Shown: positions 16,291-52,094, counted from the first letter of the stretch. The stretch: DNA of 64,000 nt from Natator depressus (GCF_965152275.1 NC_134234.1:39522920-39586919), one strand, 5' to 3'. Translations and numbers: made by a program. Notes: generated from the letters alone by a model not told the origin.

Positions 16291-17514
16291 CGCCTGTGAA
16301 TCTCTCCAGCTTCCTGTTTTCAGTTGCTTGAGAACTGGTTAGGTTTCATTCTAAACAACCTTTGTACTATCTGTTTTAGCCACTTGTCCGTTACATTGCA
16401 CCTCTGACCACCTTCGGTTTGGCATTCTTCCCCTTATTTTATAGTAAGGCATTCAGCCGTCTAGTGAGTGTCCAGTTATTATCATGCTATGAAGTGTTCT
16501 TATGTGGCATGGCTAACATGCCATCTCTGTGTTTTTAAGTATACCATTACTGTAATTTGTGTATTTTGGTATCTAACTAGGAATTGGAATCCTGAAATCA
16601 CTTATATTGGAATCACTGAAATCACCCGAGTCTCCCAAATAGCTGTGCAGCAGGCTTGTCTCGCTAGAGTTTCTTTTTGTTGTTTTTAGATATAATGTAG
16701 ACAATACAGAATAAAAACCTGAAATTCAGCATTTAAGACACACCCTTCAGATTAATCTAAAAACATTTCTGAAGCAGTACGTTTCTTTGCTTTGAAGTAC
16801 TATTATGTTCCTCACTGAGCACAAGATTATATTTTAAGGAGGATCTGGGGTAGAAAAGGTATAGAATAAGTGTACAGTATTGGGAAAACTAAAATGGCCT
16901 TCTATGAAAAATGCTATTGAACAATGTAATGTTGTTTAGCTGCCTGAGACCACTGCATCGCTGCTTGCAGTTTGTGCACATAGCAACTGGCATTCTGATT
17001 GTAGCAAAAATTACAGACAAAACTCCTCAAAAGTAACATTCTTTTCAGTGATCAGTGGCAAATATGTCTGTATCATTAGTTCAGCTCCGGTACTCTAAAC
17101 AAGGTAATTGCATACATTCCCTGAGCACCTTTGAGTGGGCAAATCAGGTTCAAAAACAGAATATAAATATCAAATGTAGATACTGCCTTCAGAGGAAGAA
17201 AACAAAAGTGGAACTAGAGAAGCTGAAACCCTGTCCCTACTAGAGTTTAATGATTGTGACAGCTATTCTAAACATGGTTAAGCCAAGCAACTTGGATGGG
17301 GCATAGCCGTATTTAAAACATTGTGGTGGGTTGTTTTTTTTTTTTTAAATAAGCCTTCTGTTCTTCCTAGTCCTGTAGCAGTTGCCTAAACATTGTTAAA
17401 GACTGAGATCTTCTTCATGTTAGCTGGCTTAAGTGTTAAATCCTGTGTAAAACTTTTACAGCAAATAGTTCAAATCTAGAAAGTATTCAGCCAAAAATGA
17501 GAGAGACAAAGTGA

Positions 17515-17665
17515 ATCAGGTAGTATCTTTTATTGGACCAGCTTCTGTTGGTGAAAGAGAGACACTTATTCTCATCAACAGAAATTGGTCCTATTAAAGA
17601 GATTACCTGACCCATCTTGTGTCTCTAATATCCTGGGACTGACACGGCTAAAACCATACTGCATT
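17515..17665 (+). repeat. Copy of the Penelope/hammerhead-associated short repeat (tail portion)
   Basis: ttattggaccagcttctgttggtgaaagagagaca...tctctaatatcctgggactgacacggctaaaaccatactgcat matches the arms of the inverted pair at 46975-47525 (caacagaagttggtccaacaaaagatattacct...ctccaatatcctgggactgacatggctacaactacgctgcata). Confidence 0.5.
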
Positions 17666-18295
17666 CAGACAAAAATTACACCGGCTGACAGGAATAAATT
17701 TAAGCAAACAAGCTCTGTCTAAACAAGGAATTTGAAAGTTTTTCAGAACAAGTCCTCTCTGAACAAGTGTTGAAAACAAAACTCGTAGACAAGAAGGCAT
17801 AATTGAGTCTGTCAGGATTTTTGTCTGACCTGAATTAGTACATAAATGTTCTCAGCAGCAGCTCAAGAAGATTTGTCAGCAAAGGGTCAGTTTCTTTTTG
17901 TAGTCAGGACTTTATCTACTTAAAAAAAAAAAAAAAAGAGAGAGAGACTTGGTAGAACTGACTGGAAAATGCAAGAGAACTCCCAAATGGAGTTGCTGTC
18001 TTATCCAGGTACTTATTTAGGAAATTCAAGTTCTTGGATATTTAACTTGAGATCACTTAGCACGAAGTATAAACATGTACAAACAGTAAGTTTGCAAAGT
18101 GTGTTATACTTACTGATCCAAGTAATCTGAAGATTTAGAAGTTCTAGAACAATAATGAGAAATGATCATGTGTTTGAAAAATTATTCAGTTCCTAAAAAT
18201 CTTTTAAAAGCCACTGTATTTGTATTACTGGAAAACCTTAAATCCCACCATTTGTACCTTCTGCAGACTCTAAAGGCCTGTTTGTCACTTACTTT

Positions 18296-18990
18296 AGGGG
18301 TGGGGAACCTATGGCACGAATCTGGCCCACTGCTTAATTTCATCCGGCCCCCAGCAAGTCTCCATTCAGTGCCGTTAAAAGTCCAGTCAGCTCCATGTAG
18401 CTTCCGGAAGCGGCTGGCATTTCCTTGCGTCCCCTTGGCGGAGGGGCAATCAGGGAAGCTCCGTGTGCTACCCCCACCCCCAGCAGCAGCTCTGCAGTTC
18501 CTTGGCCGGGAACCTTGGCCAATGGGAGCTATGGGGGTGGCTCCTGCAGATGCGGGCACCGCACAGAGCTGCCTGGCCACACCTCCTTCTAGAGGCCAGA
18601 CATGCCGGCCGCTTCTGGGAGCAGCACAGAGCCAGGGCAGGCAGGAAGCCTGCCTTAGTCATGCTGTGCTGCCAACTGGGAGCTGCCTGCAGTGAGCTCT
18701 GCCCGGCCGGAGCCTGCACCCTGAACCTCCTGCCCCAGGTCAGAAACCCCTCCCGCACCCTAACTCCCTCCCAGACCCCACACCCCCAACCCCTTGCCCC
18801 AGCCCTGAGCCAAATTCCTGCACTCCAAACCTGTTGGCCCCAGCCCGGAGCCCTCTTCTGTATCCCAAACCCCTCATCCTGAGCCCCAGCCCAGAGCCAG
18901 CACCCCTGGCTGGAGCCCTCACCCCCTACTGTGCCCCAGCCTAGAGCCTCCTCCTGCACCCTGAACCCCTCATTTCTCTCCCCACCCTAA
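18296..18990. repeat. GC-rich MITE-related repeat (GGGGAACCTATGGCAC-type left end), truncated or degenerate
   Basis: The left end aggggtggggaacctatggcacgaatctggcccac resembles the termini of the MITEs at 34361 and 7940. The C-rich body (cccagagcc..., cctgcacc...) is like 8280-8500. No convincing right TIR. Confidence 0.35.
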
Positions 18991-39300: not shown

Positions 39301-40628
39301 ACTTTTAGAAATTCACTCTCACTCTGGTGCAGAGGATAGTTTATTGGAGCGGTGCTCAACTCTACCCAAGCCCCAGAGCCTTCCTCCCAGAAGTCCAGTT
39401 TCAGGTGATAGTGTTCTTGATCATACACCTCAAGAACCTGTAGCCCAATCTATAGATTAAATTATATATAACCCATATATATAAATTATAGGTTACTTAA
39501 GAATCCCCATTTATCACTTGGAGGGTTGACAGATTTCGGGCTAGAAATAAGTGAATTAATTATGCTTTTTTTGGTCAAATGTTTCTTTTCTCCTATCTTA
39601 AGAAGTTAGCATAGCCAGTGCTACACTGCCATCTAACAAACAATGAGGTCAATAGTGAGAATACATAAAAGGTAGGGCTGTCACGCAATTAAACAATAAT
39701 AGAATACCATTTATTTAAATATTTTTGGGTGTTTTCTACATTTTCAAATATTGATTTCAATTACAACACAATACAAAGTGTACAGTGCTCACTTTTTAAA
39801 TTACAAATATTGGCACTGTAAAAAACAAAAGAAATAGTATTTTTCAGTTAACCTAATACAAGTACTGTAGTGCAGTCTCTTTATCATGAAAGTTGAGCTT
39901 ACAAATACAGAATTTTTACAAAAAAACTGCATTCAAAAATAAAACAATGTAAAACTGTAGAGCCTACATGTCCACTCAGTCCTACTTCAGCCACTCAGGC
40001 AAACAAGTTTAGTTACAATTTGCAGGAGATAATGCTGCCCACTTCTTGTTTACAGTGTCACCTGAAAGTGAGAACAGGCATTCGCATGGCACTGTTGTAA
40101 CTGGTGTTGCAAGATATTTATGTGCCAGATGTACTAAAGATTCATATGTCCCTTCATGCTTCAACCACCATTCTAGAAGATATGCATCCATGCTGGTGAT
40201 GGGTTCTGCTCGATAATGATCCAAAGCAGAGTGGACCGAAGCATGTTCATTTTTATCATCTGAGTCAGATGCCACCAGCAGAAGGTTGATTTTCTTTTTT
40301 GGTGGTTTGGGTTCTGTAGCTTCTGCATCTGAGTGATGCTCTTTTAAGAATTCTGAAAGCATGCTTCACATCTCGTCCCTCTCAGATTTTGGACGGTACT
40401 TCAGATTCTTAAACCTTGGGTCGAGTGCTGTAGCTATTTTTAGAAATCTCACGTTGGTACCTTCTTTGCATTTTGTCAGATCTGCTGTGGAAGTGTTCTT
40501 AAAATGAACATGTGCTGGGCCATCATCTGAGATTGCTATAACACGAAATATATGGCAGAATGCAGGTAAAAGAGAGAGCAGGAGACATACAATTCTCCCC
40601 CAAGGAGTTCAGTCACAAATTTAATTAA

Positions 40629-41014: not shown

Positions 41015-41835
41015 AGTACTCGTATGAGGTGAATTGAAAGCAAATACTCACAAGCAGCTACACACCACAACTAGAAATACTAAAAAAGAAATACTACACA
41101 CAGAAATACTAACCCAGGAACCAGTCCCTGTAACAAACCCCATTGCCTACTCTGTCCCCATTCTACTCTAACGACACCATCGGAGGACCTAACCATATCA
41201 GCCACACCATCAGGGGCTCATTCACCTGCACCTCTACTAATGTGATATGTGCCAGCAATGCCCCTCTGCCATGTACATTGGCCAAACCGGACAGTCTGTA
41301 TGTATAAGAATAAATGGACACAAATCAGATGTCATGAATGGTAACACACAAAAGCCAGTAGGAGAACAGTTCAGTGTCCCTGGACATTCAATAACGGATT
41401 TAAAAGTAGCCACCCTTCAACAAAAAAAATTCAAAAACAGACTTCAGAGAGAAACTGCAGAGCTACAATTCATTTGCAAATTTAAAACCATTAATTTGGG
41501 CTTGAATAGGGACTGGGAGTGGCTGGCTCACTACAAAACAACAGATTTATTTGGGCATAAGTTTTCGTAGGTAAAAAACCCCACTTCAGATGCATGGAGT
41601 GAAAATTACAGATGCAGGCATAAATTATACTGACACATGAAGCAAAGGGAGTTACCTTACAAGTGGAGAACCAGTGTTAACAAGGCCAATTCAGTCAGGG
41701 TGGATGTGGTCCACTCCCAATAATTGATGAGCAGGTGTTAATACCAAGAGAGGGAAGATTGTGTCTTTAAGGTGCCACCGGATTCCTCGTTGTTTTTGTG
41801 GATAGAGACTAACATGGCCACCCCTCTGATACTTG
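41015..41835 (+). mobile_element. Penelope-like element 3' fragment (GIY-YIG endonuclease + tail) inserted into hAT element copy B
   Basis: ORF 41247..41570 (MCQQCPSAMYIGQTGQSVCIRINGHKSDVMNGNTQKPVGEQFSVPGHSITDLKVATLQQKKFKNRLQRETAELQFICKFKTINLGLNRDWEWLAHY) is about 75% identical to the GIY-YIG domain at 50400-50700. The tail ...ctttaaggtgccaccggattcctcgttgtttttgtggatagagactaacatggc follows. Copy B sequence resumes at about 41850. Confidence 0.8.
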
Positions 41836-46392: not shown

Positions 46393-46974
46393 GTAAATGC
46401 AGTTTTAGCCTGACGTTGTTTGATATTGTCTAATATTCAGCATTTTAGCAAGCATACTGTAGGAGGACGACAGTGTGGTATGTACAGGTATGTCTGTGGC
46501 CAGGTCTGTTTCCATGGTCTTCTTTCTCAAACCACATTTTAGCTTTAAATATAGGACAAAGATCTACTGTGTGTGTCAAAGCCCTCAGACCGCTGTCATT
46601 AGTGCAGTAATCTTTCAGTCAGTGTACTAATGCATCTCTTACTAAATGGAAAAGCTTATGATAATGCAACAGTAAAGTTGCATGTTGCATGTAATCCCAA
46701 AATACACGTGTCATCTGCACACGGGTTTAACTGCAGGTTGGTTTCTCTGTTCACTTCCCAGATCAAGAGAATGTGAGTTGAGGATTGCAGGCCAGTCTGG
46801 TTCCTTAGCAGGAGGGCAAAAATGCCAAAAAGTGAGATGCCTCCACACCCAATTATTTTTGCCCCCAGGTGATAACCCAGAGTAGGGTTTTCCTGTACTT
46901 GTTTTCTAGCAAGAGAAGGTCGGTCAGTGTTGTAATGGGGAAATGCTGAGACCCTCAATGTCCCTGGGAAGAAC

Positions 46975-47525
46975 AAGGTTGGTGAGGTAATGTCTTTTAT
47001 TGTGCCAACTTATGTTAGCAAGAGAGACAAGCTTTCAAGACACACAGCGCTCTTCTTCAGGTCTGGGAAAGGTAGGTACACCCAGATTCACAGCAAAATG
47101 CAAGGAGGAACAGATTGTTTAGCGTAAGTAGCAAGCAAATATTGTAAGGGACCATTCAAGGTAGAGTGGTCCATTAACACCTCTGCAGCCATAGGACAAA
47201 GAGTGTTGTAATAAGCCATAAATTCAGTGTCTCTGTTCAGTTCATGATTTTTAGTGTCTAGCAGAGTAATGAATATAAGCTCCCAGACTCGTCTTTTAAA
47301 AGTGCTGTGCGGGTTTCCTTTGAGTATGATATCATTCTACTTTGCATTTTGCTGTGATGCTGGGAGTACCTTTCCCAGGCCTGAAGAAGAGCTCTTGTGT
47401 GGTTTGGAAGCTTCTCTTGCTCACCAACAGAAGTTGGTCCAACAAAAGATATTACCTCCCTCACCTTCTCTCTCCAATATCCTGGGACTGACATGGCTAC
47501 AACTACGCTGCATACAACCTGGGAA
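46975..47525. mobile_element. Inverted pair of Penelope-associated hammerhead-type short repeats (palindromic, about 550 bp)
   Basis: Left arm 46983-47085 (...agcaagagagacaagctttcaagacacacagcgctcttcttcaggtctgggaaagg). Right arm 47371-47520 (tttcccaggcctgaagaagagctcttgtgtggtttggaagcttctcttgctcaccaacagaagttggtccaac...ctccaatatcctgggactgacatggctacaac). The arms are reverse complements. Each carries a CUGAAGA...GAAAGCUUGUCUCU hammerhead-like core, partly mutated. Confidence 0.6.
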
Positions 47526-47942: not shown

Positions 47943-48097
47943 GCTTGTAAGAGAGGAAACTCTGACATTGTACGACTTATGATTGAAAGTGGAGCAGATT
48001 GTAACATTTTGTCAAAGCATCAGAACAGTGCACTTCATTTTGCTAAACAGTGTAATAATGTACTGGTGTATGATCTGCTCAAGAGTCACTTGGAAAC
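47943..48097 (+). CDS. MPHOSPH8: MPHOSPH8 exon 10 (ankyrin repeat)
   Basis: Acceptor tttcatgtgtag ends at 47942. Encodes ACKRGNSDIVRLMIESGADCNILSKHQNSALHFAKQCNNVLVYDLLKSHLET (human: ACKRGNSDIVRLVIECGADCNILSKHQNSALHFAKQSNNVLVYDLLKNHLET). GTAAGT donor at 48098. Confidence 0.93.
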
Positions 48098-48828
48098 GTA
48101 AGTAGTCCGTGTAGTTCTTCATTGTCTGAAACTTCAGATGTGGTTCATGTACCGCATGATTTTGGCTTAAGTCACTGAGAAGAAAGAGAAATGCTAGGGA
48201 AAAATGCAAGTTTCCCCTAGACAGAAAAAATAAATTAAGCGGTCCCAAAATCACCCAGGGATCGGCAACCCAACAGTTTCTGAAACATTGAATAAAAGTG
48301 CAGAAAGAGGAGGCAACTGACAAGCAGCTTGGGCTAACGTATTTCACTTTATAAAAATGTGCCTGTGTAGTGCTCTGGGGGCTCTGTTATTCAGTAGCAC
48401 CCACAGTGTGCTAGGTACTGGTCAAACACCTGAACACAGTCTGTGAGTTGAAGAGTTTTCAGTATAATACCACCACCTTTATGAAGAGAGGGGAGGCGGT
48501 ATAAAGATGTATATATTTTTAACTACACATTTTTATATAAGTGTCAGTTATTCCTACCTGCCCATCAGTCTACCTATTATTAGTTGACTAAATCTTTTAG
48601 CACTGCTAGGTAGAGGGGAAGAAACAATTAAAACTAAACAAATAGACCAATATCAAGCAAACTAGGCCCTTCCAAATCCTCAAAGTCCTTCAGATCCAGA
48701 ACTCACTATTTTCCCTCTAGGTCTGTCATGAGAAAACCAGAGGTTTTAGTTTGAGTTCTGGAGATAGTCTCAACTACCACAGACAGGGAGAGGGTGATCA
48801 CTGAATAGGAATAATTTAAAGCTTTAAA

Positions 48829-49818
48829 TTGAAACCAGTGCCCCATAACCTCAGCCGTGCAGAACACAATGCCATCCACAGCCTCAGAAACAACTCTGAC
48901 ATCATAATCAAAAAGGCTGACAAAGGAGGTGCTGTTGTCATCATGAATAGGTCGGAATATGAACAAGAGGCTGCTCGGCAGCTCTCCAACACCACTTTTT
49001 ACAAGCCATTACCCTCTGATCCCACTGAGAGTTACCAAAAGCATCTACAGCATTTGCTCAAGAAACTTCCTGAAAAAGCGCAAGATCAAATCCGCACAGA
49101 CACACCCCTGGAACCCCGACCTGGGATATTCTATCTACTACCCAAGATCCATAAACCTGGAAATCCTGGACGCCCCATCATCTCAGGCATTGGCACCCTG
49201 ACAGCAGGATTGTCCGGCTATGTAGACTCACTCCTCAGGCCCTACGCTACCAGCACTCCCAGCTACCTTCGAGACACCACTGACTTCCTGAGGAAACTAC
49301 AATCCATTGGTGATCTTCCTGATAACACCATCCTGGCCACTATGGATGTAGAAGCCCTCTACACCAACATTCCACACAAAGATGGACTACAAGCCATCAA
49401 GAACACTATCCCCGATAATGTCACGGCTAACCTGGTGGCTGAACTTTGTGACTTTGTCCTTACCCATAACTATTTTACATTTGGGGACAATGTATACCTT
49501 CAGATCAGCGGCACTGCTATGGGTACCCGCATGGCCCCACAGTATGCCAACATTTTTATGGCTGATTTAGAACAACGCTTCCTCAGCTCTCGTCCCCTAA
49601 CGCCCCTACTTTACTTGCGCTATATTGATGACATCTTCATCATCTGGACCCATGGAAAAGAAGCCCTTGAGGAATTCCACCATGATTTCAACAATTTCCA
49701 TCCCACCATCAACCTCAGCCTGGTCCAGTCCACACATGAGATCCACTTCCTGGACACTACAGTGCTAATAAACGATGGTCACATCAATCAACACCACCCT
49801 ATACCGGAAACCTACTGA
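48829..49818 (+). CDS. PLE reverse transcriptase ORF
   Basis: 329-aa ORF with Penelope-type RT motifs. The N-terminal part of the protein is probably truncated or decayed upstream. Confidence 0.8.
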   Translation: MKPVPHNLSRAEHNAIHSLRNNSDIIIKKADKGGAVVIMNRSEYEQEAARQLSNTTFYKPLPSDPTESYQKHLQHLLKKLPEKAQDQIRTDTPLEPRPGIFYLLPKIHKPGNPGRPIISGIGTLTAGLSGYVDSLLRPYATSTPSYLRDTTDFLRKLQSIGDLPDNTILATMDVEALYTNIPHKDGLQAIKNTIPDNVTANLVAELCDFVLTHNYFTFGDNVYLQISGTAMGTRMAPQYANIFMADLEQRFLSSRPLTPLLYLRYIDDIFIIWTHGKEALEEFHHDFNNFHPTINLSLVQSTHEIHFLDTTVLINDGHINQHHPIPETY

Positions 49819-50707
49819 CCGCTATTCCTACCTACATGCCTCCAGCTTTCACCCTGACCACACCACACGATCCATCGTCTACAGCCAAGCTCTGCGATAC
49901 AACCGCATTTGCTCCAACCCCTCAGACAGAGACAAACACCTACAAGATCTCTATCAAGCATTCTTACAACTACAATACCCACCTGCGGAAGTGAAGAAAC
50001 AGATTGATAGAGCCAGAAGAGTTCCCAGAAGTCACCTACTACAGGACAGGCCTAACAAAGAAAATAACAGAACGCCACTAGCCGTCACCTTCAGCCCCCA
50101 ACTAAAACCCCTCCAACGCATTATTAAGGATCTACAACCTATCCTGAAGGATGACCCAACACTCTCACAAATCTTGGGAGAAAGGCCAGTCCTTGCCTAC
50201 AGACAGCCCCCCAACCTGAAGCGAATACTCACCAACAACCACATACCACACAACAGAACCACTAACCCAGGAACCTATCCTTGCAACAAAGCCCGTTGCC
50301 AACTGTGCCCACATATCTATTCAGGGAACACCATCACAGGGCCTAACAACATCAGCCACACTATCAGAGGCTCGTTCACCTGCACATCCACCAATGTGAT
50401 ATATGCCATCATGTGCCAGCAATGCCCCTCTGCCATGTACATTGGTCAAACTGGACAGTCTCTACGTAAAAGAATAAATGGACACAAATCAGATGTTAAG
50501 AATTATAACATTCATAAACCAGTCGGAGAACACTTCAATCTCTCTGGTCACGCAATCACAGACATGAGGGTCGCTATCTTAAAGCAAAAAAACTTCAAAT
50601 CCAGACTCCAGCGAGAAACTGCTGAATTGGAATTCATTTGCAAATTGGATACTATTAATTTGGGCTTGAATAGAGACTGGGAGTGGCTAAGTCATTATGC
50701 AAGGTAG
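49775..50707 (+). CDS. PLE RT C-terminal linker + GIY-YIG endonuclease ORF
   Basis: 310-aa ORF. The GIY-YIG core IYAIMCQQC..YIGQTGQSLRKRINGHK...N...GLN fits the Penelope EN domain. Overlaps the RT ORF in a different frame, so a single indel is presumed. Confidence 0.8.
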   Translation: MVTSINTTLYRKPTDRYSYLHASSFHPDHTTRSIVYSQALRYNRICSNPSDRDKHLQDLYQAFLQLQYPPAEVKKQIDRARRVPRSHLLQDRPNKENNRTPLAVTFSPQLKPLQRIIKDLQPILKDDPTLSQILGERPVLAYRQPPNLKRILTNNHIPHNRTTNPGTYPCNKARCQLCPHIYSGNTITGPNNISHTIRGSFTCTSTNVIYAIMCQQCPSAMYIGQTGQSLRKRINGHKSDVKNYNIHKPVGEHFNLSGHAITDMRVAILKQKNFKSRLQRETAELEFICKLDTINLGLNRDWEWLSHYAR

Positions 50708-51150
50708 CCTATCTCCCCTTGTTTTTTTCCTACAAACCCCCCCCCCCCCCAAGACGTTCTGGTTAAACTTGGATTATTGCTGTGCACATTGTAAGATGAG
50801 CTATTGCCAGCAGGAGAGTGAGTTTGTGTGTGTGGTTTTTGGAGGGGTGTGTGTGTGTGTGGGGGGGTGAGAAAACCTGGATTAGTGCTGGAAATGACCC
50901 ACCTTGATTATCATGCGCATTATAAAGAGAGGTTTCAAAGAGGGATGGGCTATTACCAGCAGGAGAGTGAGTTTGTATGTGTGTCTGGGGGGGGGGGAGG
51001 GTGAGAAAACCTGGATTTGTGCTGGAAATGGCCTTCCTTGATGATCACTTTAGATAAGCTGTTAGCAGCAGGACAGTGGGGTGGGAGGAAGTTTTGTTTC
51101 ATGGTCTCTGTGTGTATATAATGTCTTCTGCAGTTTCCACGATATGCTAT

Positions 51151-51192
51151 GCATCCGATGAAGTGAGCTGTAGCTCACGAAAGCTCATGCTC
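51151..51192 (+). ncRNA. Hammerhead-ribozyme-like motif in the PLE tail (minimal helix III type)
   Basis: CCGATGA-A-GTGAGC-TGTA-GCTCAC-GAAA-GCTCATGC-TC. It has the GAUGA core, a perfect 6-bp helix II with a 4-nt loop, GAAA, a very short helix III and a UC cleavage-site candidate. It deviates from the CUGAUGA consensus at one position (U to C), so catalytic competence is uncertain. Confidence 0.35.
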
Positions 51193-52094
51193 AAATAAAC
51201 TGGTTAGTCTCTAAGGTGCCACAAGTACTCCTTTTTCTTTTTTCTTTTTAGTGTCTGTAAAGTTGAGAACCAAGAACCCTGGAGTTCTAATTCAGCCCCT
51301 GACCTTGGTTAAGTCATTTAACCCCTGTCTGTTTCAGGATTCCCTGTTTCATATGGGTGTTTAGTAACTACTTGTAAAGGTCTAAAATGCTAAATATTAT
51401 TGACAGATGCTGTCTTTCCCTTTGAAAGTTCGGTTGTCTGCTGCTAGTAGAAAGGCTTTGTCTGACTCCCTCATCACAGTCACTGCACAAATCAACTCTT
51501 CAGTGGGAGTCTTATCTCTCTTAAATTGAATTTTTACTCAACATGAATTGGGAACTCTGTCTGTTCTCACATGCAGCATCATAAGTAAAACTACAAATCA
51601 GCCTGGCTGCAAGCAAAGTGCTAATCAGTACAGTAGAGATGCTGTCTCTGCCTGGCCATTGAGTTATTCCAAGGGCACTGAGTATTTCCTGTTGTTGGAA
51701 TTTTGTTTCTGTATTGGAGAACTTTCCAGACCTGTCACCAATTTGAATTTTTTGAAGATTCTGCGGTGTACCTGTCTCAAGCTCATTGTGGTATTTAACA
51801 TCTGCAGACCAGACATAAGCAAGCAAATCTCACAACCAAACTAGATTCCGGATAAAATTTGATAGCAGCTCCTCATTTCTAGGAATTGGGATATTCCTCC
51901 TTTTAAATGTAAAGCAGGATGTATTAGCTTTTGGAATTCGGAATCCTAAATCTTACTCTCTAGAATCCTTCTGTGCTTCAATAACTGGTACATCTATTAC
52001 TGATAGTAATCTTTGTACAGTGATATGATCCTTATCTAGAAGGGAATACAGTTGCTCTAAATCTACTGTAAGCATCATTTCTTTGCTTATTTAG

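What the first reader, a model, noticed from the sequence alone, without database searches (positions are those of the whole stretch)
48700..51240. Near-intact Penelope-like element with a hammerhead-like ribozyme core in its tail
RT and GIY-YIG endonuclease ORFs total about 640 aa and are interrupted by a single frameshift near 49790. Downstream, the tail carries about 150-bp tandem repeats and the motif CCGAUGA-A-GUGAGC-UGUA-GCUCAC-GAAA-GCUCAUGC at 51151-51192. That motif has the architecture of the minimal (short helix III) hammerhead ribozymes reported in Penelope-like element repeats, with one core substitution. Related hammerhead-like cores (CUGAAGA...GAAAGCUUGUCUCU) occur in the inverted repeat pair at 46975-47525.
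Basis: partly seen in the sequence, partly recalled or inferred. Interest (0 to 1): 0.55.

Follow-up and report, generated by a model that had tools for sequence, protein, structure and literature searches.

The report
Truncated Penelope element with hammerhead motif
This is a dead, 5'-truncated copy of a Penelope-like retrotransposon in an intron of a sea-turtle gene; its tail carries that family's already described minimal hammerhead-ribozyme motif, here with one core mutation, so it is real but ordinary.

Summary
The described sequence is there. Window 48839-51242 (+) is one copy of a Penelope-like element (PLE) that is 94-97% identical to copies in cheloniid sea turtles. [quoted passage not shown]

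It is not near-intact. Homology to twelve other copies starts at 48839, and about 205 N-terminal codons and the upstream pseudo-LTR are missing.

The motif at 51151-51190 has every architectural hallmark of the PLE minimal hammerhead (Cervera & de la Pena 2014, who already reported it in turtles):
- a 4-bp helix I and a 6-bp helix II
- a bulged A after A9
- a G10.1-C11.1 pair
- GAAA followed by a palindromic AGCU and C17

Its only deviation is U4 to C.

Rfam hammerhead models find nothing, but they also miss relatives with canonical cores. A covariance model trained without the window scores the motif at 70 bits (E about 7e-18). Across turtles, a gecko, a shark and two unidentified eukaryotes, 8 of 10 pairs show compensatory changes.

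The inverted pair at 46973-47525 holds two decayed hammerhead tails of a second PLE family.

Verdict: an already known kind of element. The only mild curiosity is that the C4 variant recurs in many cheloniid and emydid copies.

The parts
48839..51242 (+). One 5'-truncated, frameshifted copy of a Penelope-like element (ORF remnant + 3' pLTR part + hammerhead + tail)
   Evidence: blastn against copies from Lepidochelys, Chrysemys and Gopherus: homology starts at 48839 in all three and ends at about 51242. Upstream DNA does not align.
48839..49786 (+). ORF part 1: end of the N-terminal region and the RT core (YIDD present)
   Evidence: Pfam RVT_1 4e-11. 95-97% identical to sea-turtle proteins. 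Aligns to residues 212 onward of the intact 832-aa P0043.
49787..49790 (+). Private 4-nt insertion (ATCA duplication) that causes the single frameshift
   Evidence: Absent from all 12 related copies aligned.
49791..50707 (+). ORF part 2: RT C-terminal region and linker, CX4CxxC motif, GIY-YIG endonuclease with internal CxxC, stop codon
   Evidence: Pfam GIY-YIG 8.7e-5, 23.2 bits against a 22.6 cut-off. The motifs are read directly from the translation. The clade criteria come from PMC8557442.
50795..51105 (+). Degenerate repeats of about 150 nt (2 full copies plus 1 partial) in the 3' UTR / pLTR part
   Evidence: the repeat finder family D1/D2. The same internal repeats are seen in the Lepidochelys pLTR.
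51151..51190 (+). Minimal type-I hammerhead motif. Helix I 51151-54 / 51187-90. Core CCGAUGA 51155-61 (C at 51156 stands where U4 belongs). Bulged A 51162. Helix II 51163-68 / 51173-78, loop UGUA. GAAA 51179-82. Palindromic AGCU 51182-85. C17 51186. Predicted cleavage between 51186 and 51187.
   Evidence: Descriptor scan. Covariation: 8/10 pairs compensatory, 95.9% of cells paired. Model R1, trained without the window, scores 70.3 bits, E 6.9e-18.
51187..51242 (+). Tail: the conserved segment 3' of the predicted cleavage site, with AATAAA at 51194-51199 and ending in a T-rich run. This copy has the shorter of the two 3'-end variants.
   Evidence: Alignments A2. Other copies continue with GCGAATACAGACTAAC.... 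The PLE tail concept comes from PMC11167929 and PMC8557442.
46973..47110 (-). Decayed tail of a second PLE family, with hammerhead remnant 47022-47065 (CUGAAGA-A-...-GAAA-GCU-U; helix I 4 bp, helix II reduced to 3 bp)
   Evidence: Model R1 scores 22.1 bits, E 6e-4.
47335..47525 (+). Head-to-head partner of the previous part. The hammerhead remnant at 47377-47424 is further decayed (GAAA changed to GGAA, helix II broken).
   Evidence: Model R1 gives E 1.7, not significant.

Best explanation
Window 48839-51242 is a dead-on-arrival or later-inactivated insertion of a canonical endonuclease-positive Penelope-like element (Neptune/Nematis-type endonuclease). It sits in sense orientation in an intron of an ankyrin-repeat gene of a cheloniid sea turtle.

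Shown here:
- RT plus GIY-YIG coding capacity.
- 5' truncation at ORF codon ~206 and one private frameshift.
- A 3' part made of the family's pseudo-LTR sequence.
- That part ends in a ~95-nt module (hammerhead plus tail) that stays nearly identical between subfamilies whose remaining pLTR has diverged by 30-45%.
- The hammerhead part is a type-I minimal hammerhead with no helix III of its own. Its helices I and II covary across turtles, a gecko, a shark and two unidentified eukaryotes. Its catalytic nucleotides are invariant except N7 (free, as expected) and position 4 (U or C).

Inferred from the PLE literature:
- In active, tandem or pLTR-flanked copies, two such motifs pair through the palindromic A15.1-G-C-U16.1 to build a shared helix III.
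- They then self-cleave after C17/U17, slowly and probably with help from the element's own protein. This trims read-through transcripts to unit length.
- Reverse transcription then starts at internal sites near the 3' end, which produces the characteristic tail.

This particular copy has a single motif, no partner on the same strand, and C instead of U4. It is most likely catalytically inert and has no function for the host.
For: - RVT_1 and GIY-YIG hits.
- 95-97% identity to sea-turtle proteins whose precomputed Pfam domains are DUF8422 + RVT_1 + HTH_animal + GIY-YIG.
- A common homology start at 48839, and alignment to residues 212-831 of an intact 832-aa ORF from a tandem PLE.
- The frameshift is private to this copy.
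- The motif sits at the homologous place in every related copy fetched.
- 95.9% of cells are paired, 8/10 pairs carry double changes, 0/500 shuffles reach this, and slid controls give 22-46% paired.
- G10.1-C11.1 is 10/10 in that alignment.
- Model R1, built without the window, scores 70.3 bits at 51149-51194.
- The 49-nt RNA folds into exactly helix I + helix II as its minimum-energy structure.
- The hammerhead + tail module is conserved between otherwise divergent pLTRs.
- Relatives show the typical PLE layouts: upstream pLTR, inverted 5'-truncated copy, tandem ORFs.
- Literature. Features of PLE min-HHRs and their presence in turtles: PMC4209133. Insertion structure, tail and cysteine motifs: PMC8557442. 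Internal RT initiation and a protein-assisted hammerhead in the Anolis PLE: PMC11167929.
- Two short inverted tail fragments begin within about 0-4 nt of the predicted cleavage site (L013 18560-18745; window 17501-17667). This fits templates that had been cleaved in vivo.
Against: - No Rfam hammerhead model matches, even at E <= 10.
- The copy has C at the conserved U4. From my own recollection of Ruffner, Stormo & Uhlenbeck 1990 (not checked here), U4 substitutions strongly reduce cleavage in minimal hammerheads.
- In its 101-nt context the predicted minimum-energy fold is a competing hairpin and is no better than shuffles (z = +0.71).
- No clear target-site duplication was found.
- Self-cleavage was never measured for this family.
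- Published PLE min-HHRs cleave poorly in vitro, and cleavage was dispensable for insertion in vitro.
Confidence: 0.9

Rival explanations
1. The conserved hairpin-plus-tail module is kept mainly as the RNA signal that the PLE protein binds to start reverse transcription or to be recognised by the endonuclease. Self-cleavage would be vestigial or dispensable, and the hammerhead likeness would be historical rather than functional in turtles.
For: - The C4 variant is not private. It is present in the window, Lepidochelys, Eretmochelys, Natator and Chrysemys copies, combined with three different N7 bases.
- In the Anolis PLE, catalytic hammerhead mutants did not affect insertion in vitro, and RT starts next to the tail.
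- Naiad/Chlamys PLEs thrive without hammerheads.
- The tail downstream of the cleavage site is at least as conserved as the ribozyme.
Against: - The invariant positions are exactly the catalytic ones (C3, G5, A6, G8, A9, G12-A14, A15.1, U16.1, non-G17). The one position free to vary in hammerheads (N7) takes all four bases.
- The helices are kept by compensation rather than by sequence.
- Fragments start near the predicted cleavage site.
- The Anolis motif does cleave when the protein is present.
Confidence: 0.25
2. The motif is a chance resemblance to a hammerhead core inside an ordinary 3' UTR hairpin.
For: - There is no Rfam hit.
- There is one core mismatch.
- The thermodynamic fold in context is not better than shuffles.
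Against: - The descriptor expects 0.02 hits per 64 kb.
- The same architecture sits at the same place in PLE copies down to 44-50% protein identity, with compensatory changes.
- The independent covariance model gives E about 7e-18.
- The Rfam negative is explained by the missing helix III.
Confidence: 0.01
3. The intronic, sense-oriented hammerhead has been co-opted by the host gene, as proposed for the conserved intronic hammerheads of amniotes, to process or regulate the pre-mRNA.
For: - The element lies in sense orientation about 740 nt downstream of an ankyrin-repeat exon at 47943-48098.
- It would therefore be transcribed with the intron.
Against: - It carries a core substitution and has no partner motif to build helix III.
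- The copy looks like any other decaying family member (ORF about 94% identical to the Lepidochelys copy; tail region 11-15% diverged).
- No conservation test across orthologous loci was possible.
Confidence: 0.03

Closest known systems
Minimal hammerhead ribozymes (min-HHRs) of metazoan Penelope-like elements (Cervera & de la Pena 2014, PMC4209133; Lunse, Weinberg & Breaker 2017, cited in PMC6765202)
   Same: - Type-I topology with no helix III of its own, and a palindromic 15.2-16.2 (AGCU) for dimer formation.
- Long helix II (6 bp) and short helix I (4 bp).
- An unpaired nucleotide between A9 and G10.1, and a G10.1-C11.1 pair.
- Location in the pLTR, with occurrences as inverted pairs 100-700 bp apart.
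- The 2014 paper states that such motifs are conserved in turtles and snakes.
   Different: - This copy has C at position 4. Relatives in Gopherus, Emydura, Carettochelys, a gecko and some sea-turtle copies have the canonical U.
- No cleavage data exist for the turtle family.
Canonical EN+ PLEs of the Neptune/Nematis type (Arkhipova 2006; Craig et al. 2021, PMC8557442)
   Same: [quoted passage not shown]
- An upstream CX2-5CxxC motif (here C-NKAR-C-QL-C).
- 5' truncation.
- Relatives with an upstream pLTR and an adjacent inverted truncated copy.
- A hammerhead in the pLTR, followed by a tail.
   Different: - Clade assignment rests on motifs only; no phylogeny with named references was made.
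- This copy has no upstream pLTR.
PAc, the Poseidon PLE of Anolis carolinensis (PMC11167929)
   Same: - Reptilian PLE with a pLTR hammerhead close to the start of the next unit.
- A tail bounded by RT start sites.
- The hammerhead there is active only with the element's protein.
   Different: - It belongs to a different clade: per PMC8557442, Penelope/Poseidon lack the CX2-5CxxC motif.
- In PAc the ORF overlaps the hammerhead. In the intact relative L005 the motif lies about 80 nt upstream of the ATG.
Animal non-LTR retrozymes (PMC7229834; bioRxiv 10.64898/2026.07.22.740005)
   Same: - Hammerhead-bearing, PLE-pLTR-related repeats.
- A mini-unit consisting only of hammerhead + tail was seen in Natator (L013 18650-18745).
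   Different: - Retrozymes are tandem arrays of canonical type-I hammerheads with loop-loop contacts, and they yield circular RNAs.
- Here there is a single minimal motif attached to a coding PLE remnant.

Membership tests
Penelope-like elements (canonical EN+) | Reverse transcriptase domain | tested here: met
   Pfam RVT_1 4e-11, 43.4 bits against a 29.6 cut-off. YIDD is present in the translation.
Penelope-like elements (canonical EN+) | C-terminal GIY-YIG endonuclease with the PLE-type CCHH motif (two Cys inside the GIY-YIG core) | tested here: met
   Pfam GIY-YIG scores 23.2 bits against a 22.6 cut-off on ORF 2. It scores 22.2 bits, just under the cut-off, on the merged protein. VIYAIMCQQCPSAMYIGQT...NGH...GEH is read directly from the translation. 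The criterion comes from PMC8557442.
Penelope-like elements (canonical EN+) | RT groups with PLE/telomerase RTs in a phylogeny | not tested
   No named PLE reference sequences were available. The only support is indirect: the homologs share the same domain string, and one sits in a tandem arrangement with a hammerhead between the ORFs.
Penelope-like elements (canonical EN+) | Pseudo-LTRs: partial tandem and/or adjacent inverted 5'-truncated copy | tested here: not met
   This copy has no upstream pLTR or inverted partner; the DNA upstream of 48839 is unrelated. The family does show these layouts in L001, L002, L003 and L005. The second-family pair at 46973-47525 is such an inverted structure.
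Penelope-like elements (canonical EN+) | Hammerhead motif in the pLTR, followed by a short tail | tested here: met
   The tail is 51187-51242. Two 3'-end variants exist among copies.
Neptune/Nematis-type PLE endonuclease | CX2-5CxxC motif upstream of the GIY-YIG | tested here: met
   C-NKAR-C-QL-C is read from the translation and conserved in P0043 and P0007. The criterion comes from PMC8557442.
Hammerhead ribozyme (PLE minimal type I) | Core C3-U4-G5-A6-N7-G8-A9 | tested here: not met
   This copy reads CCGAUGA, with C at position 4 (51156). Six of the seven positions fit. Relatives carry CUGAUGA, CUGAGGA or CUGACGA. This copy is therefore a mutated member. The family motif meets the feature.
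Hammerhead ribozyme (PLE minimal type I) | G12-A13-A14, A15.1...U16.1, and a non-G at position 17 | tested here: met
   GAAA-GC-U-C at 51179-51186. These columns are invariant in alignment A3, and H17 is C or U.
Hammerhead ribozyme (PLE minimal type I) | Helices I and II supported by covariation | tested here: met
   95.9% of cells paired, 8/10 pairs with changes on both sides, 0/500 shuffles as high, slid controls at 46% paired or less.
Hammerhead ribozyme (PLE minimal type I) | Min-HHR hallmarks: extra nucleotide between A9 and G10.1, a G10.1-C11.1 pair, palindromic 15.2-16.2 | tested here: met
   The bulged A and the AGCU are in all ten sequences of A3, and G10.1-C11.1 is 10/10 there. One Emydura copy outside A3 has G-U at that pair. 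The hallmarks are listed in PMC4209133.
Hammerhead ribozyme (canonical, Rfam Hammerhead_1/_3/_II/HH9/HH10) | A match to a curated hammerhead covariance model, which requires a helix III | tested here: not met
   No hit at gathering score or at E <= 10. Relatives with a canonical core are also missed.
Hammerhead ribozyme (any) | Site-specific self-cleavage | not testable with these tools
   This needs in vitro transcription of monomer and dimer constructs.

The most novel reading that the evidence does not exclude
The U4-to-C hammerhead core is not a private decay mutation. It may be the state of a master lineage that kept amplifying in cheloniid and emydid turtles. It occurs in the window and in Lepidochelys, Eretmochelys, Natator and Chrysemys copies, as CCGAUGA, CCGAAGA and CCGACGA. 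The neighbouring CpG at C11.1-G12 is intact in nearly all copies of that group.

If this is right, one of two things follows. Either a protein-assisted minimal hammerhead tolerates C4, or PLE retrotransposition in vivo does not need hammerhead catalysis at all.
Probability: 0.3. Interest if true: 0.35.

Novelty: already known. Interest (0 to 1): 0.15.

Why it matters
It matters little beyond annotation. It is a correctly spotted example of a known association (PLE pseudo-LTRs carry minimal, dimer-dependent hammerheads) in a lineage where that association was already reported.

Two practical points follow:
- Rfam hammerhead models cannot be used to confirm or refute this class of motif. A descriptor or a family-specific model is needed.
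- Turtle genomes hold many near-identical copies that differ at U4/C4. A census by copy age could give a natural experiment on whether hammerhead catalysis is needed for PLE spread.

Tried and rejected
- Rfam, whole window at gathering score and both sub-regions at E <= 10: no hammerhead hit, only chance snoRNA/lncRNA noise. Controls on canonical-core relatives were also negative, so this test is uninformative.
- TRF on the tail found only GT and T-rich microsatellites. The ~150-nt repeats needed repeat finder.
- MFE folding of 51140-51240 gives a competing hairpin with z = +0.71, so thermodynamics gives no support in context. The isolated 49-mer does fold as helix I + II.
- The dimeric helix III is a pseudoknot relative to helix I and could not be scored. 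RNAcofold instead prefers a 16-bp intermolecular helix II duplex.
- An ungapped search for a target-site duplication found nothing of 9 nt or more with at most 1 mismatch. A gapped resemblance (TAAATTGAAACCAG upstream, TAAAGTTGAGAACCAAG downstream) was judged unconvincing.
- The first version of my descriptor scan missed the window motif because the UGUA loop can over-extend helix II. This was fixed.
- The metagenome pattern scan gave a single hit, L007.
- No intact second-family copies were found in about 190 kb of fetched loci, and one fuzzy search timed out. The second-family consensus I used is recalled from memory. It is supported only by being closer (86-87%) to each window copy than the copies are to each other (79%).
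- The Lunse et al. paper and the supplements of PMC4209133 are not held.
- The R1 hit at 40323-40368 (E 0.26) lacks a GAAA box and was rejected.
Full report
**What is there**

The window is vertebrate DNA (CpG observed/expected 0.31). On the + strand, two overlapping ORFs, 48829-49818 and 49775-50707, match Pfam RVT_1 (4e-11) and GIY-YIG (8.7e-5, just above the curated cut-off). They are separated by one frameshift. Alignment with twelve related copies shows a private 4-nt insertion, a duplication of ATCA at 49787-49790. Removing it gives 624 codons without a stop.

A search of the large protein collection returns 2,319 relatives. The best are 95-97% identical proteins annotated in Lepidochelys, Eretmochelys, Caretta and Natator. 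Chrysemys (90%), Gopherus (80%) and Pelodiscus (71%) follow, and below them come 40-50% relatives from fish, amphibians, ticks, echinoderms and unlabelled assemblies. The window therefore comes from a cheloniid sea turtle or a very close relative.

The translation shows YIDD in the RT. [quoted passage not shown] According to Craig et al. 2021 these mark canonical EN+ PLEs (the CCHH motif) and, within them, the Neptune/Nematis type (the CX2-5CxxC motif, absent from Penelope/Poseidon).

**Not near-intact**

I fetched the DNA around relatives from Lepidochelys (L001), Chrysemys (L002) and Gopherus (L003). Homology with the window begins at 48839 in all three. The three relatives continue to align with each other further upstream, while the window does not.

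Against an intact 832-aa ORF that lies in a tandem PLE array (P0043, L005), the window protein aligns from residue 212 to 831. Against the 715-aa Gopherus protein it aligns from residue 78. About 205 codons, the 5' UTR and any upstream pseudo-LTR are therefore missing.

The element spans about 48839-51242, not 48700-51240. No ungapped target-site duplication was found.

The relatives show the layouts described for PLEs:
- an upstream pLTR copy followed by an inverted tail in L001
- an inverted 5'-truncated copy abutting the full copy in L002 and L003
- tandem ORFs in L005

**The tail**

After the stop codon at 50707 there are about 440 nt of non-coding sequence with degenerate repeats of about 150 nt. 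Their starts are at 50795, 50944 and 51053, with 83% and 60% identity to the first copy. TRF does not score them, but the same internal repeats occur in the Lepidochelys pLTR.

In hammerhead numbering it reads:
- GCAU: helix I, 5' strand, 51151-54
- C3-C4-G5-A6-U7-G8-A9: core, 51155-61
- an unpaired A: 51162
- GUGAGC / UGUA / GCUCAC: helix II and its loop, 51163-78
- G12-A13-A14-A15.1: 51179-82
- G15.2-C16.2-U16.1: 51183-85
- C17: 51186
- AUGC: helix I, 3' strand, 51187-90

About 50 further conserved nucleotides (the tail) end in a T-rich run near 51242.

**Is it a hammerhead?**

Rfam says no. There is no hammerhead family at gathering score in the whole window and none at E <= 10 in either sub-region. 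That test cannot decide the question. The same search also finds nothing in relatives whose cores are perfectly canonical: CUGAUGA in L005 and CUGAGGA in L003. The curated models expect a helix III, and this class has none.

Cervera & de la Pena 2014 defined the PLE minimal hammerhead by the following features:
- a long helix II and a short helix I of 4-5 bp
- an unpaired nucleotide between A9 and G10.1
- a conserved G10.1-C11.1 pair
- a palindromic 15.2-16.2, so that two copies can build helix III together

They state that such motifs are conserved in turtles and snakes. The window motif has all of these features.

A strict descriptor written for this report finds the motif once in the window. 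It expects 0.02 hits per shuffled window.

The same descriptor finds a motif at the equivalent place, downstream of the ORF and just before the tail, in every relative fetched:
- Lepidochelys, Chrysemys, Gopherus, Eretmochelys, Natator, Emydura and Carettochelys
- the gecko Eublepharis
- the shark Heptranchias (relaxed version of the scan)
- an unlabelled ENA eukaryote with tandem PLEs
- one JGI metagenome contig

Helix II changes from GUGAGC/GCUCAC to GUGGGU/ACCCAC, GUGGGC/GUCCAC, GAGAA/UUCUC and GCCCUU/AAGGGC. Helix I changes from GCAU/AUGC to GCAC/GUGC and UUGC/GCGG.

Counted on a ten-sequence alignment:
- 95.9% of cells form pairs
- 8 of 10 pairs show changes on both sides
- none of 500 column shuffles reaches this
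- sliding the partners by 1-3 columns drops pairing to 22-46%

The invariant columns are C3, G5, A6, G8, A9, the bulged A, G10.1, C11.1, G12, A13, A14, A15.1, G15.2, C16.2 and U16.1. N7 takes all four bases, and H17 is C or U.

A covariance model built from nine relatives without the window sequence scores 51149-51194 at 70.3 bits, E about 7e-18. The motif is therefore a genuine member of the PLE minimal-hammerhead motif family by sequence, structure and position. This copy departs at one defining core position (U4 to C), and catalysis is untested.

**How it most likely works**

The next three points come from the literature, not from this window.
- PLE min-HHRs are inactive as monomers and cleave weakly as dimers through the shared helix III.
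- In the Anolis PLE the motif cleaves only when the element's protein is present. Its catalytic mutants do not impair target-primed insertion in vitro.
- Reverse transcription starts at two internal sites that bracket the tail.

In the intact relative L005 the motif lies about 80 nt upstream of the next ORF's ATG. Cleavage of a tandem transcript would thus release a unit-length RNA that begins with the tail sequence.

Three observations made here fit a functional module:
- The ~95-nt hammerhead-plus-tail block is almost identical between subfamilies whose remaining pLTR differs by 30-45%.
- Copies come with two alternative 3' ends. The window copy stops in the T-rich run. Others continue with GCGAAUACAGACUAAC....
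- Two short inverted tail fragments begin within about 0-4 nt of the predicted cleavage site (Natator L013 18560-18745; window 17501-17667 for the second family). This is what cDNA made on a cleaved template would look like. Two cases are anecdote, not proof.

The window copy itself has one motif, C at position 4 and no same-strand partner. In its 101-nt context a competing hairpin is predicted, although the isolated 49-mer folds as helix I + II. I consider it inert.

**The second locus**

At 46973-47525 two tails of a different PLE family face away from each other, with their 5' ends inward.
- The minus-strand copy keeps CUGAAGA-A, GAAA, GCU-U and a 4-bp helix I, but only 3 bp of helix II. 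Model R1 gives E 6e-4.
- The plus-strand copy has lost more (GGAA in place of GAAA) and is not significant (E 1.7).

Such opposed pairs 100-700 bp apart were described in 2014. A further decayed hammerhead, with a 3-nt core deletion, lies at 41551-41595 on the minus strand (R1 29.5 bits).

**The C4 variant**

C at position 4 is not private to this copy. Among cheloniid copies it occurs in the window, Lepidochelys L001 (upstream copy), Eretmochelys L010 (two copies) and Natator L013 (three). Chrysemys has CCGAAGA.

U4 occurs in the Lepidochelys inverted copy, in four Eretmochelys copies (three of which share a loop variant and may represent one event), and in Gopherus, Emydura, Carettochelys, the gecko, the shark and both unlabelled relatives. 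U4 is thus ancestral for the wider group.

Within the young cheloniid subfamily, where tails differ by 1-5%, both states occur. CCG to CUG is the favoured CpG decay direction. The neighbouring CpG at C11.1-G12 is intact in nearly all of these copies; the one exception seen is CAGGAAA in Natator L013 at 9880. A C4 master lineage is therefore possible, but the sample is far too small to say so.

**Verdict**

The kind is already described, including for turtles. Interest is low.

Noticed in passing
window 41551-41595 (-): Another decayed PLE hammerhead (AUGCAUCUG---AAGUGGGG...CCUACGAAAACUUAUGCCCAAAUAAAUCUGUU). It has a 3-nt core deletion and a shortened tail. Model R1 scores 29.5 bits, E 4.5e-6.
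   Followed up: partly
window 17501-17667: Two inverted tails of the second PLE family with no hammerhead. Both 5' ends lie at or within a few nt of the predicted cleavage site (…GCUU^GUCUCUC). This would fit cDNA made on ribozyme-cleaved RNA.
   Followed up: partly
L013 (Natator depressus) 18560-18745: A mini-unit made only of hammerhead + tail. It is joined head-to-head to an inverted long-form tail whose 5' end is at the predicted cleavage site (+/-2 nt). It looks like a non-autonomous PLE derivative.
   Followed up: partly
window 51156, and L001, L002, L010, L013: The U4-to-C core variant recurs in many cheloniid and Chrysemys copies, combined with three different N7 bases. The adjacent CpG at C11.1-G12 is kept in nearly all copies.
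   Followed up: partly
window 51194-51199 and the homologous sites in the loci: An AATAAA (ATTAAA in Emydura) lies 7-15 nt after the predicted cleavage site in most lineages: sea turtles, Chrysemys, the gecko, L005 and L007. In the second family it lies about 27 nt after the site. It is absent in Gopherus and Carettochelys. It may be a polyadenylation signal for PLE transcripts.
   Followed up: no
window 47943-48098 (+): A host exon with splice-site-like borders encodes ACKRGNSDIVRLMIESGADCNILSKHQNSALHFAKQCNNVLVYDLLKSHLET, an ankyrin repeat (Pfam Ank 5.6e-7). The PLE therefore lies in sense orientation in the downstream intron.
   Followed up: partly
window 51163-51190: GAGCU/AGCUC occurs three times (helix II 5' strand, helix II 3' strand, and the AGCUC at the cleavage site). 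A competing hairpin and a 16-bp intermolecular helix II duplex are therefore predicted alongside the hammerhead fold.
   Followed up: no
window 50736-50751 and 50983-51000: A C14 run and a G11 run within the pLTR part form an imperfect inverted repeat. (GT)n tracts lie next to the repeat units.
   Followed up: no
L008 and L009 (Lepidochelys kempii): The same chimeric RING-finger/PLE gene model and identical flanks occur twice, about 640 kb apart on one chromosome. This is a segmental duplication or an assembly duplication that includes the PLE.
   Followed up: no
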